Source of the DNA: Chlamydiota bacterium
GTDB taxonomy: Bacteria; Chlamydiota; Chlamydiia; Chlamydiales; 2-12-FULL-49-11
Length of the DNA stretch: 64,000 nt
Assembly: GCA_947478685.1 (NCBI GenBank)
Contig: CANJWO010000002.1
Location: 8,926-72,925 of the forward strand
Direction of reading: 5' to 3'
Positions 53,240 to 55,666 of this stretch are shown piece by piece. The translations under genes were made by a program, and so were the position numbers. Numbering within the stretch: position 1 is the first letter of the stretch; each line of letters begins with the position of its first letter. Under the pieces are notes generated by a model. It was not told the origin of the DNA. It did not search any database and saw nothing but the letters and a program-made list of their open reading frames with translations.

Positions 53240-54516
53240 TTAGAGATCTCCTTTTCAATTTTGACAACAACTTCTACATGCATCGTTTGCGGGAACATAT
53301 CAAAAGGGAAAGCCTCCACTTTTGAATATCCAAAACTAGCAAAAAAATTTAGATCTCTTGCTAACGTTGCAGGATCGCATGACGTATAAATAATTTTCTT
53401 TGGATTCTTTCTAACAGATGCCTCTAAAACACTCTCTTCGCATCCCTTTCGTGGGGGATTTAAAAAAATGACATCAAAATCATCAAGCTCACCAATAAGG
53501 TCTTCTACTTTTCCTAAATGAAAATCGACATCTACCCCATTTGCTTTCGCATTCTTTTTTGCATCAATAACAGCACTTTCTACCATTTCGATACCAGTAA
53601 CATTGACTTCTTGCTGGGATAAATAGGCACAGAAAATTCCTATCCCACAGTAAGCATCTAACGCCCTCTCACCTTTTTTAAGATCAGCTAGCTCAGCTGC
53701 TTTTTTGTAGAGACTTTCCGCCTGCTCCAAATTGACCTGAAAAAAAGATGCCGGAGAAATTTCAACTTTGATCCCAAGCACTTCTTCCTCAAGAACACCA
53801 TCTCCAAAGAGGAGGGTATAAGCATCACTATATAAGACATTATCATCTCTGCTATTCAGGCCATGAAGAACCCCTTTAACCCCATTCATGAGGGAAACAG
53901 TTTTTGCCAATTTTCGAATTTCCGGAGTTGGTCTCTCCCTTGTAACTAAGACAACAAGCGATTCCCCCTTACGATTGGTTCGAATCAAGACATTTCTTAT
54001 TCCATCGACAAGCTCAATATCTTCTAAAATTTTATTTCCGGCATCACTCTGAATGTAGCAGATCTCAATTGGGACAATATCATGACTTCTCTTCGCATAG
54101 AGACCCACTTTTAGATTCTTATCGACAGGCAATTGGACCTTGTTGCGGTAATAGAGCGGTTTAGGAGAGGGTTCTACGGGAGCAACAGTAAATCCTTTAA
54201 GTTTTCCGATCCGTTCAAATGCATCAATCACCCGTTTTCTCTTAAGATTTAATTGCTCAGCATATGCTAAGTGCATAATTTGACACCCGCCACACTTGCC
54301 AAAAACAGGACAAATAGGTTTTACTCGGCCAAAAGATTGATCTAATATTTCGAGCAATTCTCCTTTTGCATAAGAGGGTTTTTTGAGAGTTATTCTTGCC
54401 CGAACTGTCTCGCCCGGCAACGCCCCGTCAACAAAGATGGTGAGACCCTCATGTGTCCCTACACCTTCCCCCAAAATTGTCACATCTCTAATTAAAACTA
54501 TAACTTCTTGCGCCAT
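53236..54516 (-). CDS. rlmD: 23S rRNA (uracil-5-)-methyltransferase, RumA/RlmD family
   Basis: TRAM N-domain, Fe-S Cys cluster CPVFGKCGGCQIMH, DAYCGIG SAM motif, YTSCDPATLARD. Confidence 0.9.
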   Translation of the reverse strand: MAQEVIVLIRDVTILGEGVGTHEGLTIFVDGALPGETVRARITLKKPSYAKGELLEILDQSFGRVKPICPVFGKCGGCQIMHLAYAEQLNLKRKRVIDAFERIGKLKGFTVAPVEPSPKPLYYRNKVQLPVDKNLKVGLYAKRSHDIVPIEICYIQSDAGNKILEDIELVDGIRNVLIRTNRKGESLVVLVTRERPTPEIRKLAKTVSLMNGVKGVLHGLNSRDDNVLYSDAYTLLFGDGVLEEEVLGIKVEISPASFFQVNLEQAESLYKKAAELADLKKGERALDAYCGIGIFCAYLSQQEVNVTGIEMVESAVIDAKKNAKANGVDVDFHLGKVEDLIGELDDFDVIFLNPPRKGCEESVLEASVRKNPKKIIYTSCDPATLARDLNFFASFGYSKVEAFPFDMFPQTMHVEVVVKIEKEISK

Positions 54517-54525
54517 AAATATTTT
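54500..54525. repeat. Left 26-bp direct repeat (contains the functional rumA start)
   Basis: ataacttcttgcgccataaatatttt is identical to 55641-55666. Confidence 0.95.
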
Positions 54526-54536
54526 AAGTCTCTAAT

Positions 54537-55619
54537 TTAATCAATAATATCTTCAATATGATGTTCTGACAATCCTGCCTCAATTTCTTCGGCAGTTGGT
54601 AAAGTTCCTTGCAATTCCTCAGGCAAAGCGTCATGAATTTTTACTTCATACCCAGAAACACTCATAGGCATCAAAACTCGTTTAAGTGCATATTCAACTT
54701 TAAGATCATTCTTTGTTCTACAAATGATCATCCCAATTGAAGGGTTGTCTGTAGGATGCTTTAATTGTTCATCAACAGCAGCAAGATAAAAGTTCATTTT
54801 CCCAGCATACTCCGGTTTAAAATCTGTACTTTTTAACTCTACAACGCAAAATGCTCTCAGTTTGATATGGTAAAAAATCATATCGAGATAATAATCATCG
54901 CCAGCAATTTCAAGATGATATTGCCTTCCAATAAAAGCAAATCCTTGTCCGAGTTCCAAAATCAATTTTTCTATATTTTGAATAAGACCTAACTCAAGCT
55001 CGTGCTCAATATAGTCATTAGATAAAGTTAAAAATCCAAAGTTATACGGACTTTTCAAAATATCATGCGCAAGTTTCGAATGAGGACTAGGTAAGCGATC
55101 CTGAAAATTAGTAATAGCTTTTCCCTGTCTTAAATAAAGCTTCGATTTAATTGAATCGTCTAAAGCCCTTCCACTCCAACCGTTTACGATAGTTTGCTGA
55201 GCGTACCACATCCTCTCTTCTTGACTATCTAACTTCTCTAGAAGAAGAATGTTATGCCACCACGGTAATTTTGCAGGCACTGCTTGCAAAATTGATAAAT
55301 CAGAGTAAGATTCAAAAAACTTACGCATATAACGTAAATTTCTTGGAGAAAATCCTGAAATTCCTGGAAAATCATTTCCTATATCGTTTGCCAATCTATC
55401 AATAACTTTAGCGCCCCAACCTGCCTCTTTCATTTTTCCGGAGAGCATATTCCCAATCTCCCAATACAGAAAGACAAGTTCATTATTAACTGCTATTGCT
55501 GCTTTTAACTGAGCTTTTCGTATTTTTTCTTTAAGCTGATTTAATAAATCTACATAACCTTCTGGAATAGTCAGTTTTAAATCCTTCTGGCTTAAAAGAG
55601 ATTTTAGTTTTTTCGCCAT
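54537..55619 (-). CDS. DUF1016/YhcG-family PD-(D/E)xK nuclease-domain protein
   Basis: Family-typical N-terminus LLNQLKEKIRKAQLKAAIAVNNELVFLYWEIG, FSPRNLRYMRKF, and nuclease core DMIFYH...CVVELK. Confidence 0.9.
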   Translation of the reverse strand: MAKKLKSLLSQKDLKLTIPEGYVDLLNQLKEKIRKAQLKAAIAVNNELVFLYWEIGNMLSGKMKEAGWGAKVIDRLANDIGNDFPGISGFSPRNLRYMRKFFESYSDLSILQAVPAKLPWWHNILLLEKLDSQEERMWYAQQTIVNGWSGRALDDSIKSKLYLRQGKAITNFQDRLPSPHSKLAHDILKSPYNFGFLTLSNDYIEHELELGLIQNIEKLILELGQGFAFIGRQYHLEIAGDDYYLDMIFYHIKLRAFCVVELKSTDFKPEYAGKMNFYLAAVDEQLKHPTDNPSIGMIICRTKNDLKVEYALKRVLMPMSVSGYEVKIHDALPEELQGTLPTAEEIEAGLSEHHIEDIID

Positions 55620-55657
55620 TAGCCAGCTCCTTTTACAATGATAACTTCTTGCGCCAT
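55619..55657 (-). CDS. 12-codon leader ORF MAQEVIIVKGAG created by the duplicated rumA start
   Basis: The first 6 codons are identical to rumA (MAQEVI). The stop TAA overlaps the ATG of the DUF1016 gene (TAATG at 55621-55617). Confidence 0.3.
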   Translation of the reverse strand: MAQEVIIVKGAG

Positions 55658-55666
55658 AAATATTTT
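55641..55666. repeat. Right 26-bp direct repeat
   Basis: Identical to 54500-54525. Confidence 0.95.

What the first reader, a model, noticed from the sequence alone, without database searches (positions are those of the whole stretch)
54500..55666. Solo DUF1016 PD-(D/E)xK nuclease cassette inserted into the rumA start, with 26-bp target duplication and a hijacked leader ORF
The 26-mer ataacttcttgcgccataaatatttt occurs at 54500-54525 and 55641-55666. Between the two copies lies only the DUF1016/YhcG gene. The repeat consists of the first 17 nt of rumA (ATGGCGCAAGAAGTTAT) plus 9 upstream nt. The insertion therefore happened at codon 6 of rumA and regenerated an intact rumA start at the left copy. 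The right copy now opens a 12-codon ORF, MAQEVIIVKGAG. Its TAA overlaps the nuclease ATG (TAATG, 55621-55617), so the incoming gene appears to borrow the promoter, RBS and start of rumA by translational coupling. No transposase or integrase is present, and 26 bp is long for a transposon target duplication. This looks more like att-type or homing-type insertion of a selfish nuclease gene. Together with the DUF4143 ATPase-nuclease at 29.4 kb, it suggests single-gene PD-(D/E)xK modules colonising housekeeping loci.
Basis: seen in the sequence. Interest (0 to 1): 0.65.

Follow-up and report, generated by a model that had tools for sequence, protein, structure and literature searches.

The report
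Nuclease gene inserted with duplicated rumA start
A single foreign nuclease gene, from a candidate anti-phage family, landed in the first codons of a ribosomal-RNA methylase gene of a freshwater chlamydia and duplicated 26 bases of the target, so the host gene kept its start; this is a clean example of a known but unexplained, recombinase-free way for such genes to enter genomes.

Summary
The 26-mer is exact at 54500-54525 and 55641-55666, and nowhere else in the window. It brackets 1115 bp of lower-GC DNA holding one gene, a DUF1016/YhcG PD-(D/E)xK nuclease (PADLOC candidate PDC-S02).

- Four related chlamydial MAGs (rumA 70-79% identical) and two distant ones have the empty site. There the epimerase and rumA genes are divergent, 28 nt apart, with one copy of the 26-mer region.
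- Independent assemblies from several lakes show both junctions, so this is not an assembly artefact.
- The nearest DUF1016 homologues (80-85% aa) sit at unrelated loci without the 26-mer. There are no terminal inverted repeats and no recombinase in the insert.
- The insert brings its own Shine-Dalgarno but only 21 nt of leader. Transcription from rumA's upstream region, helped by the 12-codon leader ORF (TAATG), is a plausible inference.

The closest known phenomenon is "insertion with long target duplication", described for restriction(-modification) genes and mechanistically unexplained. The att-type and homing-type readings find no support. Two other DUF1016 loci fetched here also carry long flanking repeats (49 and about 80 bp), against none in 246 control ORFs.

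I rate this a new member of a known kind, of moderate interest.

The parts
54500..54525 (.). Left (rumA-proximal) copy of the 26-bp duplication. It covers rumA -9..+17 and serves as the working rumA start.
   Evidence: Exact match. It is continuous with the intact rumA ORF.
55641..55666 (.). Right (epimerase-proximal) copy of the 26-bp duplication. It lies 20-45 nt upstream of the epimerase start and opens the leader ORF.
   Evidence: Exact match. Its flank continues into the native epimerase-rumA spacer, as in relatives.
54526..55640 (-). Foreign DNA of 1115 bp: 21 nt of leader with SD, the DUF1016 ORF, and 11 nt of trailer.
   Evidence: Absent from L012-L016 and L036. GC is 34.9% against 39.8% for the window. 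DNA similarity to homologues is confined to the ORF.
54537..55619 (-). DUF1016/YhcG PD-(D/E)xK nuclease gene, 360 aa, intact.
   Evidence: Pfam match. PADLOC PDC-S02 at 4.6e-140. dN/dS is 0.05-0.07 against homologues. The catalytic E222, D242/D246 and E261-L-K263 are conserved. The fold is PD-(D/E)xK.
55619..55657 (-). 12-codon leader ORF MAQEVIIVKGAG*. It consists of the first 5 2/3 codons of rumA plus insert sequence, and its stop overlaps the nuclease ATG (TAATG).
   Evidence: Read directly. Whether it functions is inferred.
55627..55633 (-). Shine-Dalgarno AAAGGAG, 7 nt before the nuclease ATG, inside the foreign DNA.
   Evidence: Read. A comparable AAGGA precedes the L092 homologue.
53236..54516 (-). 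rumA/rlmD (23S rRNA U1939 methyltransferase), intact. It is now the second gene after the nuclease gene.
   Evidence: TIGR00479 at 355.8 bits. Full-length alignment with relatives.
52427..53239 (-). NUDIX hydrolase gene overlapping the rumA stop by 4 nt. It is the conserved downstream partner of rumA.
   Evidence: The same order is found in L012-L016.
55686..56558 (+). Aldose-1-epimerase-family gene, divergent from rumA. The corrected start is GTG 55686.
   Evidence: Pfam match. The GTG/ATG-AAAGAA start is conserved in L012-L015.
54529..54553 (-). Target-like stretch at the 3' inner end of the insert. It matches rumA +8..+32 at 20/25 positions, in frame, and the part after the last nuclease codon matches at 10/11 (TAAATTAGAGA vs TTAATTAGAGA).
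   Evidence: D2. P<1/1992 in random segment pairs. The first 14 nt are native nuclease C-terminus.
55624..55640 (-). 17 nt following the right copy. They match rumA +18..+34 at 10/17 positions in register, making a 43-nt imperfect repeat, and they contain the SD.
   Evidence: D1. P=0.005. They also resemble the homologues' 5' leaders weakly.
55267..55293 (.). 27-nt near-perfect palindrome inside the nuclease gene, at codons for ILQAVPAKL.
   Evidence: (I16). It is invariant at DNA level in homologues although dS is saturated.
54544..54572 (-). Sigma-70-like site TTGTCA-17-TATTAT in the last codons of the nuclease gene, facing rumA.
   Evidence: 10/12 match. The number of such sites in the region is not above shuffles, so this is only a lead.

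Best explanation
A horizontally acquired DUF1016/YhcG nuclease gene, which lost its promoter on the way in, was inserted into the first codons of rumA in the lineage of this freshwater chlamydia.

**What the insertion did.**
- It duplicated the target: 26 bp perfectly (-9..+17 of rumA), and probably about 42 bp originally. The upstream copy is now interrupted or decayed beyond +17.
- The downstream copy keeps rumA, and the rumA-NUDIX pair, intact.
- The upstream copy keeps the 5' region of the divergent epimerase intact. It leaves a dummy rumA start that runs into the insert as a 12-codon ORF ending in TAATG on the nuclease start.

**How the nuclease gene is expressed (inferred).** It is read as the first cistron of the rumA transcript, from the promoter that lies within or beside the epimerase 5' end. 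It uses its own Shine-Dalgarno and is possibly helped by termination-reinitiation from the leader ORF.

**How it got in (inferred).** The event belongs to the recombinase-free "insertion with long target duplication" known for restriction(-modification) genes. The likely route is break or replication repair, either widely staggered nicks filled in or template switching at short homeologies. Transposition, att recombination and homing are all unlikely.

**What the gene does (inferred).** It is kept by selection, most likely as a defence-type or selfish DNA endonuclease.
For: **Shown: insertion and target duplication.**
- The exact 26-mer pair has 0 expected by chance.
- It brackets a single gene of the DUF1016_N + YhcG_C architecture.
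- The empty site, with one homologous copy (2-4 mismatches) and 28 nt between the divergent starts, is present in L012-L015. The adjacency without the gene is present in L016 and L036. The tree groups the window with L012-L015.
- Both junctions are reproduced in independent assemblies.

**Shown: foreign origin.**
- The insert has 34.9% GC against 39.8-45.6% around it.
- The nearest homologues (80-85% aa) lie at unrelated loci.
- DNA homology is limited to the ORF.

**Shown: the gene is functional.**
- dN/dS is 0.05-0.07.
- The E...D...E-L-K motif of Kosinski 2005 (PMC1189080) is conserved.
- The fold is PD-(D/E)xK, and the protein matches PDC-S02.

**Shown: no autonomous mobility signals.**
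- No inverted repeat joins the insert ends.
- No second ORF is present.
- The 26-mer is not found near any other DUF1016 gene.

**Shown: promoter loss.** L092, L132 and L135 share an element CATTGACTTTTCCCTCTGTAAAATG about 60 nt upstream of their ATG. The window keeps only 21 nt of leader.

**The known parallel.** Furuta et al. 2010 (PMC2853133) describe such insertions for type I-IV restriction systems, without other mobile elements.

- An hsdM-DUF1016-hsdS arrangement has a 73-80-bp duplicated hsdM end.
- The same gene at another locus sits within a perfect 49-bp duplication.
- By contrast, 0 of 246 control ORFs reach score 20.

**Non-random target-like stretches** lie at both inner ends of the insert.
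Against: - The perfect repeat is 26 bp, below the 30-bp limit that Furuta et al. used. The longer version is imperfect and its reading is ambiguous.
- Most DUF1016 loci examined (L092-L094, L132, L133, L136, L138, L140 and 14 of 15 viral contigs) have no flanking repeat. Long duplication is therefore not a general property of the family.
- No RNA data exist for this organism, so co-transcription, leader translation and coupling are untested.
- The leader region is not unusually structured (z = +1.34).
- The promoter-like sites are no more frequent than in shuffles.
- The repair mechanism is inferred only by exclusion.
- The donor is unknown, because dS against every homologue is saturated.
Confidence: 0.7

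Rival explanations
1. The nuclease itself drives the insertion. DUF1016/YhcG would be an ORF-sized selfish element whose Holliday-junction-resolvase-like nuclease makes widely staggered nicks, or cuts a cruciform, at gene boundaries. Host repair then fills in a variable-length target duplication.
For:
- The family carries a DNA-level conserved palindrome inside the gene.
- Kosinski 2005 relates the domain to archaeal HJ resolvases.
- Furuta 2010 suggests that double-strand breakage, common to restriction enzymes, underlies this type of insertion.
Against: - No biochemical data exist for any family member. There is no PDB relative by sequence, and the fold hits are generic.
- Most loci lack repeats.
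- The association could simply reflect which insertions survive next to essential gene ends.
Confidence: 0.13
2. Homing. The nuclease cuts the empty epimerase-rumA junction, and the gene is copied in from a filled allele by recombinational repair.
For: - It is a stand-alone nuclease gene with almost no flanking DNA of its own.
- Stretches at both inner ends resemble the target, as co-converted flanks might.
Against: - Homing gives no target duplication.
- No other genome shows the gene at rumA. All 80 rumA loci lack it, and all homologue loci lack rumA.
- The two target-like stretches share no derived changes with each other (my comparison of the sequences). A common diverged donor allele is therefore not indicated.
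Confidence: 0.07
3. Site-specific (att-type) integration of a small circular cassette by an integrase or Xer recombinase acting in trans, with the 26-mer as the shared core.
For: - Perfect direct repeats of 20-30 bp are typical of att cores.
- The insert has no recombinase of its own, so one acting in trans would be needed.
Against: - The 26-mer is simply the local rumA start, and it is conserved in position in the empty sites.
- Nothing like it lies near any other DUF1016 gene (0 hits at up to 5 mismatches in 380 kb).
- A circle carrying 26 nt identical to this species' rumA start has no evident source.
- The repeat contains no dyad-symmetric core that I could see.
Confidence: 0.06
4. The gene is ancestral at this position, and the relatives lost it by recombination between the repeats.
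For: Deletion between direct repeats would leave exactly the single-copy state seen in the relatives.
Against: - At least four close and two distant lineages lack it, which would need several independent precise losses.
- The repeats themselves still imply a prior insertion.
- The insert's GC has not ameliorated to the host value.
Confidence: 0.04

Closest known systems
Insertion with long target duplication of restriction(-modification) genes (Nobusato et al. 2000 as cited in Furuta, Abe & Kobayashi 2010, NAR 38:2428, PMC2853133)
   Same: - Nuclease-type defence gene(s) are present in one genome and absent from a relative whose sequence aligns on both sides.
- The insert is bracketed by a direct duplication of the single-copy target.
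- No transposase, integrase or terminal inverted repeats are present.
- The duplication spares the neighbouring genes.
- The mechanism is unknown.
   Different: - The cargo is a solitary DUF1016/YhcG gene, not an R plus M pair.
- The perfect duplication is 26 bp (published cases run from over 30 to about 420 bp). It is longer only if the imperfect 42-43-bp version is counted.
- The host is a chlamydia.
- The duplicated piece is a start codon region, which creates a leader ORF.
DUF1016/YhcG family (Pfam PF17761+PF06250, COG4804; PADLOC candidate PDC-S02)
   Same: - Both domains are present full-length.
- The catalytic E-D-E(I/L/V)K signature is present.
- It is a stand-alone gene with patchy distribution.
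- Lateral transfer among intracellular bacteria has been noted before (Gillespie 2014, PMC4316617).
   Different: In the papers I could search, nothing describes family members as inserts with target duplications. The function of the family is untested.
IS1634-type transposons with long, variable target duplications
   Same: The target duplication is far longer than the usual 2-14 bp.
   Different: There is no transposase and no terminal inverted repeats, and the insert is only one ORF long.
Free-standing homing endonuclease genes of phages
   Same: A single nuclease gene is wedged between or into conserved genes, with minimal own flanks and reliance on host expression signals.
   Different: Homing leaves no duplication and recurs at the same site in other genomes. 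Neither is seen here.

Membership tests
DUF1016/YhcG PD-(D/E)xK nucleases | N-terminal DUF1016_N plus C-terminal YhcG_C domains, both above Pfam gathering scores | tested here: met
   149.0 bits (cutoff 32.8) and 203.9 bits (cutoff 32.5), both full-length
DUF1016/YhcG PD-(D/E)xK nucleases | Catalytic signature E - D - E(I/L/V)K (Kosinski 2005) | tested here: met
   E222, D242/D246 and E261-L262-K263. E222, D242, L262 and K263 are invariant and D246 nearly invariant in 35 homologues. See also the alignment.
DUF1016/YhcG PD-(D/E)xK nucleases | Restriction-endonuclease-like fold | tested here: met
   AlphaFold model with pLDDT 76-84 in the C-terminal domain. Foldseek hits are MGME1, AdnA nuclease, Cas4 SSO0001 and NucS/EndoMS. 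TM scores are low (0.2-0.33), so only the fold class is supported.
PADLOC PDC-S02 (candidate single-gene phage defence) | Match to the PDC-S02 profiles | tested here: met
   E = 4.6e-140 over residues 17-352
PADLOC PDC-S02 (candidate single-gene phage defence) | Protection against phage | not testable with these tools
   This is only a candidate system, and the host is an uncultured intracellular bacterium.
Insertion with long target duplication (Furuta 2010 criteria) | The insert is absent from a related genome whose flanks align on both sides | tested here: met
   L012-L015 have epimerase, rumA and NUDIX in the same order without the gene
Insertion with long target duplication (Furuta 2010 criteria) | Both repeat copies align with a single-copy sequence in the empty genome | tested here: met
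   There is one copy with 2-4 mismatches at the rumA start of each relative
Insertion with long target duplication (Furuta 2010 criteria) | Duplication longer than 30 bp | tested here: inconclusive
   The perfect repeat is 26 bp. A 43-nt repeat at 84% identity exists, or about 42 nt if the target-like 54529-54540 piece is counted.
Insertion with long target duplication (Furuta 2010 criteria) | The insert holds restriction and modification genes | tested here: not met
   It holds a single nuclease-family gene and no methyltransferase. Their second screen did include solitary type IV enzymes.
Insertion with long target duplication (Furuta 2010 criteria) | No other mobility element in or at the insert | tested here: met
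   There is one ORF, and no inverted repeats join the ends
DNA transposon / IS | Transposase gene and terminal inverted repeats | tested here: not met
att-site integrating element | The same core sequence accompanies the element at other sites, or a recombinase is present | tested here: not met
   There are 0 matches at up to 5 mismatches in 380 kb around other DUF1016 genes. No recombinase is in the insert. The rest of the genome was not searchable.
Homing endonuclease gene | The same site is filled in other lineages, with no target duplication | tested here: not met
   None of 80 rumA loci is filled, and a duplication is present

The most novel reading that the evidence does not exclude
DUF1016/YhcG genes are ORF-sized, recombinase-free mobile elements. 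Their own resolvase-like nuclease, perhaps acting with the conserved palindrome inside the gene, creates widely staggered breaks at gene boundaries. Repair then installs the gene with a target duplication of variable length (26 bp here, 49 and about 80 bp in other loci seen here). That duplication both spares the host gene and hands the incoming gene its expression signals.
Probability: 0.12. Interest if true: 0.85.

Novelty: new member of a known kind. Interest (0 to 1): 0.45.

Why it matters
This is an unusually clean natural record of how a defence-type nuclease gene enters a compact genome without breaking anything.

- The filled and empty sites are both available.
- The duplication is exact.
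- The junction lies in a start codon, so the consequences for expression can be read off: a dummy start, a leader ORF and a lost promoter.

The case adds a solitary PD-(D/E)xK gene family, and the phylum Chlamydiota, to the "insertion with long target duplication" phenomenon, whose mechanism has been open since 2000. If the recurrence around DUF1016 genes holds up in a census, the family would be a tractable model for that mechanism: one gene, one protein, and defined junctions.

Tried and rejected

**Searches that led nowhere.**
- The metagenome scan with the protein returned only relatives of about 40% identity from gut samples, and no close ones.
- The viral scan with the single protein found nothing. 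With the alignment it found 19 prophage-type loci, mostly without flanking repeats.
- No RNA run holds the region.
- Laying contigs of eight DNA runs showed only the filled allele and no empty-site joint. Contigs cannot show rare alleles. The one joint listed there belongs to another organism's DUF1016 gene.

**Ideas considered and rejected.**
- The nuclease's last codons are not a remnant of an earlier rumA target. EDIID is native, because homologues end in EDTID(K/E).
- Both target-like inner ends do not seem to come from one diverged rumA allele. They share no derived differences.
- Xer/dif-like site: by eye, against the E. coli dif sequence recalled from memory, the match is poor and needs an indel. 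This was not tested formally.
- Translational control hairpin: a weak stem pairs GCUGGCU before the ATG with AGCCAG in codons 10-12. The fold is no better than shuffles and the arms are not conserved in homologues.
- No PDB relative exists by sequence.
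Full report
**1. The observation**

The 26-mer ATAACTTCTTGCGCCATAAATATTTT stands at 54500-54525 and 55641-55666. It has no third copy in the window even at three mismatches, and none is expected in shuffles.

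All features below lie on the minus strand.
- rumA/rlmD runs 54516 to 53236. It has TRAM and U5-methyltransferase domains and matches TIGR00479 at 355.8 bits against a cutoff of 183.55.
- A 360-aa ORF runs 55619 to 54537. It has full-length DUF1016_N and YhcG_C domains.
- The left copy is rumA -9..+17.
- The right copy starts ATGGCGCAAGAAGTTATCATTGTAAAAGGAGCTGGCTAATG, a 12-codon ORF whose TAA overlaps the nuclease ATG.

The ORF finder puts the epimerase start at ATG 55638, inside the repeat. Four relatives show that conservation begins at GTG/ATG-AAAGAA, so the true start is GTG 55686. Only one gene therefore lies between the repeats.

**2. A real insertion, with empty sites**

A scan of one genome per species with the rumA protein gave 80 loci.
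- The four closest are environmental chlamydial MAGs L012-L015. Their rumA is 70-79% identical and their epimerase 75-90% identical to the window's.
- All four carry epimerase, rumA and NUDIX in the same order but without the nuclease gene.
- Their divergent start codons are 28 nt apart, and each has one copy of the 26-mer region with 2-4 substitutions.
- Two distant relatives (L016, L036) also have the adjacency without the gene.
- A rumA tree groups the window with L012-L015, with L012 nearest. One gain on the window's branch is the parsimonious reading.

The filled structure, with both junctions letter-identical, appears in contigs from at least six independent samples. It also appears in single contigs of up to 23.5 kb in three further runs. 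It is therefore not an assembly artefact. No contig shows an empty allele within this species, but contigs cannot reveal rare alleles.

**3. The insert is foreign and compact**

It is 1115 bp: 21 nt, the ORF, then 11 nt.
- GC is 34.9%, against 39.8% for the window, 40.1% for rumA and 45.6% for the epimerase.
- The best homologues are 80-85% identical in protein. They sit at unrelated loci in other chlamydiae and other MAGs, and none is near rumA. Their neighbours include ribonucleotide reductase, peptidase C69, acetyltransferases, HIT/HAD genes, CNNM and PARG.
- DNA similarity to them begins near the start codon and ends at the last codon.
- Synonymous sites are saturated and dN/dS is 0.05-0.07. 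The gene is under strong purifying selection, and the actual donor is not in the data.
- Three homologues (L092, L132, L135) share a conserved element CATTGACTTTTCCCTCTGTAAAATG about 60 nt upstream of their start. The window's copy retains only the last 21 nt of leader, with the Shine-Dalgarno AAAGGAG. The gene arrived, or survived, without its own upstream region.

**4. What the protein is**

- Pfam gives DUF1016_N + YhcG_C.
- PADLOC gives PDC-S02, a candidate single-gene defence system, at 4.6e-140.
- NCBIfam has no model, and there is no PDB relative by sequence.
- The E-D-E(I/L/V)K signature that Kosinski et al. defined for the YhcG family (PMC1189080) is present and conserved.
- An AlphaFold model has mean pLDDT 70.9. 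The helical N-domain scores 83-93 and the nuclease domain 76-84.
- Foldseek against the PDB hits generic PD-(D/E)xK nucleases: MGME1, AdnA, Cas4 SSO0001 and NucS/EndoMS. This supports the fold class and nothing more specific.
- Earlier work noted DUF1016 genes on conjugative elements and their lateral transfer among intracellular bacteria (PMC4316617).

**5. How it is probably expressed (inferred)**

In the empty site only 28 nt separate the two divergent start codons. rumA's promoter must therefore overlap the epimerase 5' region, upstream of the right copy. The insert offers 21 nt before its ATG.

The simplest reading is that the nuclease gene has become the first cistron of the rumA-NUDIX transcript.
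- Its own SD is correctly spaced, so it does not need rumA's initiation region.
- The dummy rumA start plus the TAATG overlap could add termination-reinitiation.
- A good sigma-70-like match (TTGTCA-17-TATTAT) in the last codons of the nuclease gene faces rumA and might serve it. Such matches are no more frequent here than in shuffles.
- The leader RNA is not unusually structured.
- No RNA data exist for this organism.

**6. How it got there**

Several routes are tested and unlikely.
- **Transposition.** There is no transposase, and no inverted repeats join the ends.
- **An att core.** The repeat is just the local rumA start. Nothing like it, at up to 5 mismatches, occurs in 380 kb around the other DUF1016 genes fetched.
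- **Homing.** Homing makes no duplication, and no other rumA locus is filled.

The pattern matches "insertion with long target duplication". Furuta, Abe and Kobayashi documented this for type I-IV restriction systems in many bacteria. They found no other mobile element at such inserts and suggested that it depends on DNA breakage (PMC2853133). Their cut-off was over 30 bp, and the perfect repeat here is 26 bp.

The structure is more complex than a plain 26-bp duplication.
- The 17 nt after the right copy match rumA +18..+34 at 10 of 17 positions in register (P = 0.005).
- The 25 nt ending 3 nt before the left copy match rumA +8..+32 at 20 of 25 positions, in frame (P < 1/1992).
- The first 14 nt of that second stretch are the nuclease's native C-terminal codons.
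- The following TAAATTAGAGA matches rumA's TTAATTAGAGA at 10 of 11 positions. It supplies the stop codon one codon earlier than in homologues.

One reading is that about 42 bp (-9..+33) were duplicated. The foreign DNA would then lie inside the upstream copy, joined at a homeologous stretch (GAAGATATTATTGAT against GAAGTTATAGTT). That would fit template switching or microhomology-mediated repair better than a simple staggered cut. I regard this as suggestive, not settled.

**7. Recurrence**

Earlier notes of this scan report many DUF1016 genes bracketed by target duplications of 49-570 bp. I treated these as leads and tested the idea on loci fetched here.
- In gut-metagenome loci, a DUF1016 gene (40% identical to the window's) lies between hsdM and hsdS. 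In four of them it is bracketed by a 73-80-nt imperfect duplication of the hsdM 3' end plus a hairpin.
- At another locus (L118) the same gene still drags a remnant of the hsdM end. It sits between unrelated genes inside a perfect 49-bp duplication.
- One viral contig (L154) has a 23-nt palindromic repeat on both sides.
- Against this, eight chlamydia-type loci and 14 viral loci have no repeat.
- Of 246 control ORFs of similar size, none reaches a score of 20.

The association is real in this small sample but far from universal. I could not confirm empty sites for the gut cases.

**8. Verdict**

The att and homing suggestions do not.

The case is a new member of a known, mechanistically unexplained kind of gene insertion, in a new gene family and phylum. 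The start-codon duplication is an instructive feature.

The boldest reading still open is that the nuclease promotes its own insertion (probability about 0.12).

**Limits.** There are no transcript data and no biochemistry for this family.

Noticed in passing
window 55267-55293 (inside the DUF1016 gene): A 27-nt near-perfect palindrome AATTTTGCAAGCA-G-TGCCTGCAAAATT lies at the codons for ILQAVPAKL. It is invariant at DNA level in L092-L094 and L135 although synonymous sites are otherwise saturated. A distant homologue (L129) has a different perfect palindrome, AATTGTGTCGCC..GGCGACACAATT, at the same codon position. The gut and L095 homologues have none.
   Followed up: partly
L103 2677-2756 and 3945-4024 (also L096, L107, L108): A gut-metagenome DUF1016 gene sits between hsdM and hsdS of a type I R-M system. 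It is flanked by a 73-80-nt imperfect duplication of the hsdM 3' end plus a hairpin. Loci such as L097 carry the same gene without the second copy.
   Followed up: partly
L118 2924-2972 and 4636-4684: The same gut DUF1016 gene, still preceded by a remnant of the hsdM 3' end (about 3061-3140), lies at a non-R-M locus between a DUF6359 gene and an Endonuclease_NS gene. It sits inside a perfect 49-bp direct repeat. This looks like a second move that carried a piece of the old target.
   Followed up: partly
window 55638-55686: The longest-ORF start of the epimerase (ATG 55638) lies inside the duplicated 26-mer and is an artefact. The conserved start is GTG 55686, which is ATG in L013 and L015.
   Followed up: yes
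L092 about 3945-3970; L132 about 2620-2645; L135 about 113-138: A conserved element CATTGACTTTTCCCTCTG(T/C)AAAATG lies about 60 nt upstream of three close DUF1016 homologues at three different loci. It is absent from the window's copy. It may be the family's own promoter or operator.
   Followed up: partly
L132 2097-2399 (-) next to 2676-3758 (+): A 100-aa DUF1016_N fragment lies head-to-head with a full-length DUF1016 gene. It may be a remnant of a second copy or of a rearrangement.
   Followed up: no
L154 2064-2086 and 3357-3379: A perfect 23-nt repeat, AATTGTGCAGACGGTCTGCACAA, is itself a palindrome. It lies on both sides of a DUF1016 gene in a viral contig.
   Followed up: no
It abuts citrate synthase and has no flanking direct repeat of score 18 or more. 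Whether the gene is an insertion could not be tested.
   Followed up: partly
L012 (CAMBTZ010000089.1): The closest relative's record is titled Chlamydia trachomatis MAG. Its gene content and 79% rumA identity to this freshwater organism indicate a mislabelled environmental chlamydia.
   Followed up: no
window 54909-54944 and 55398-55422 (runs X1, X3, X4): Contigs from other organisms in the same lake metagenomes match only these short conserved stretches of the gene. Other DUF1016 genes therefore co-occur in the community.
   Followed up: no
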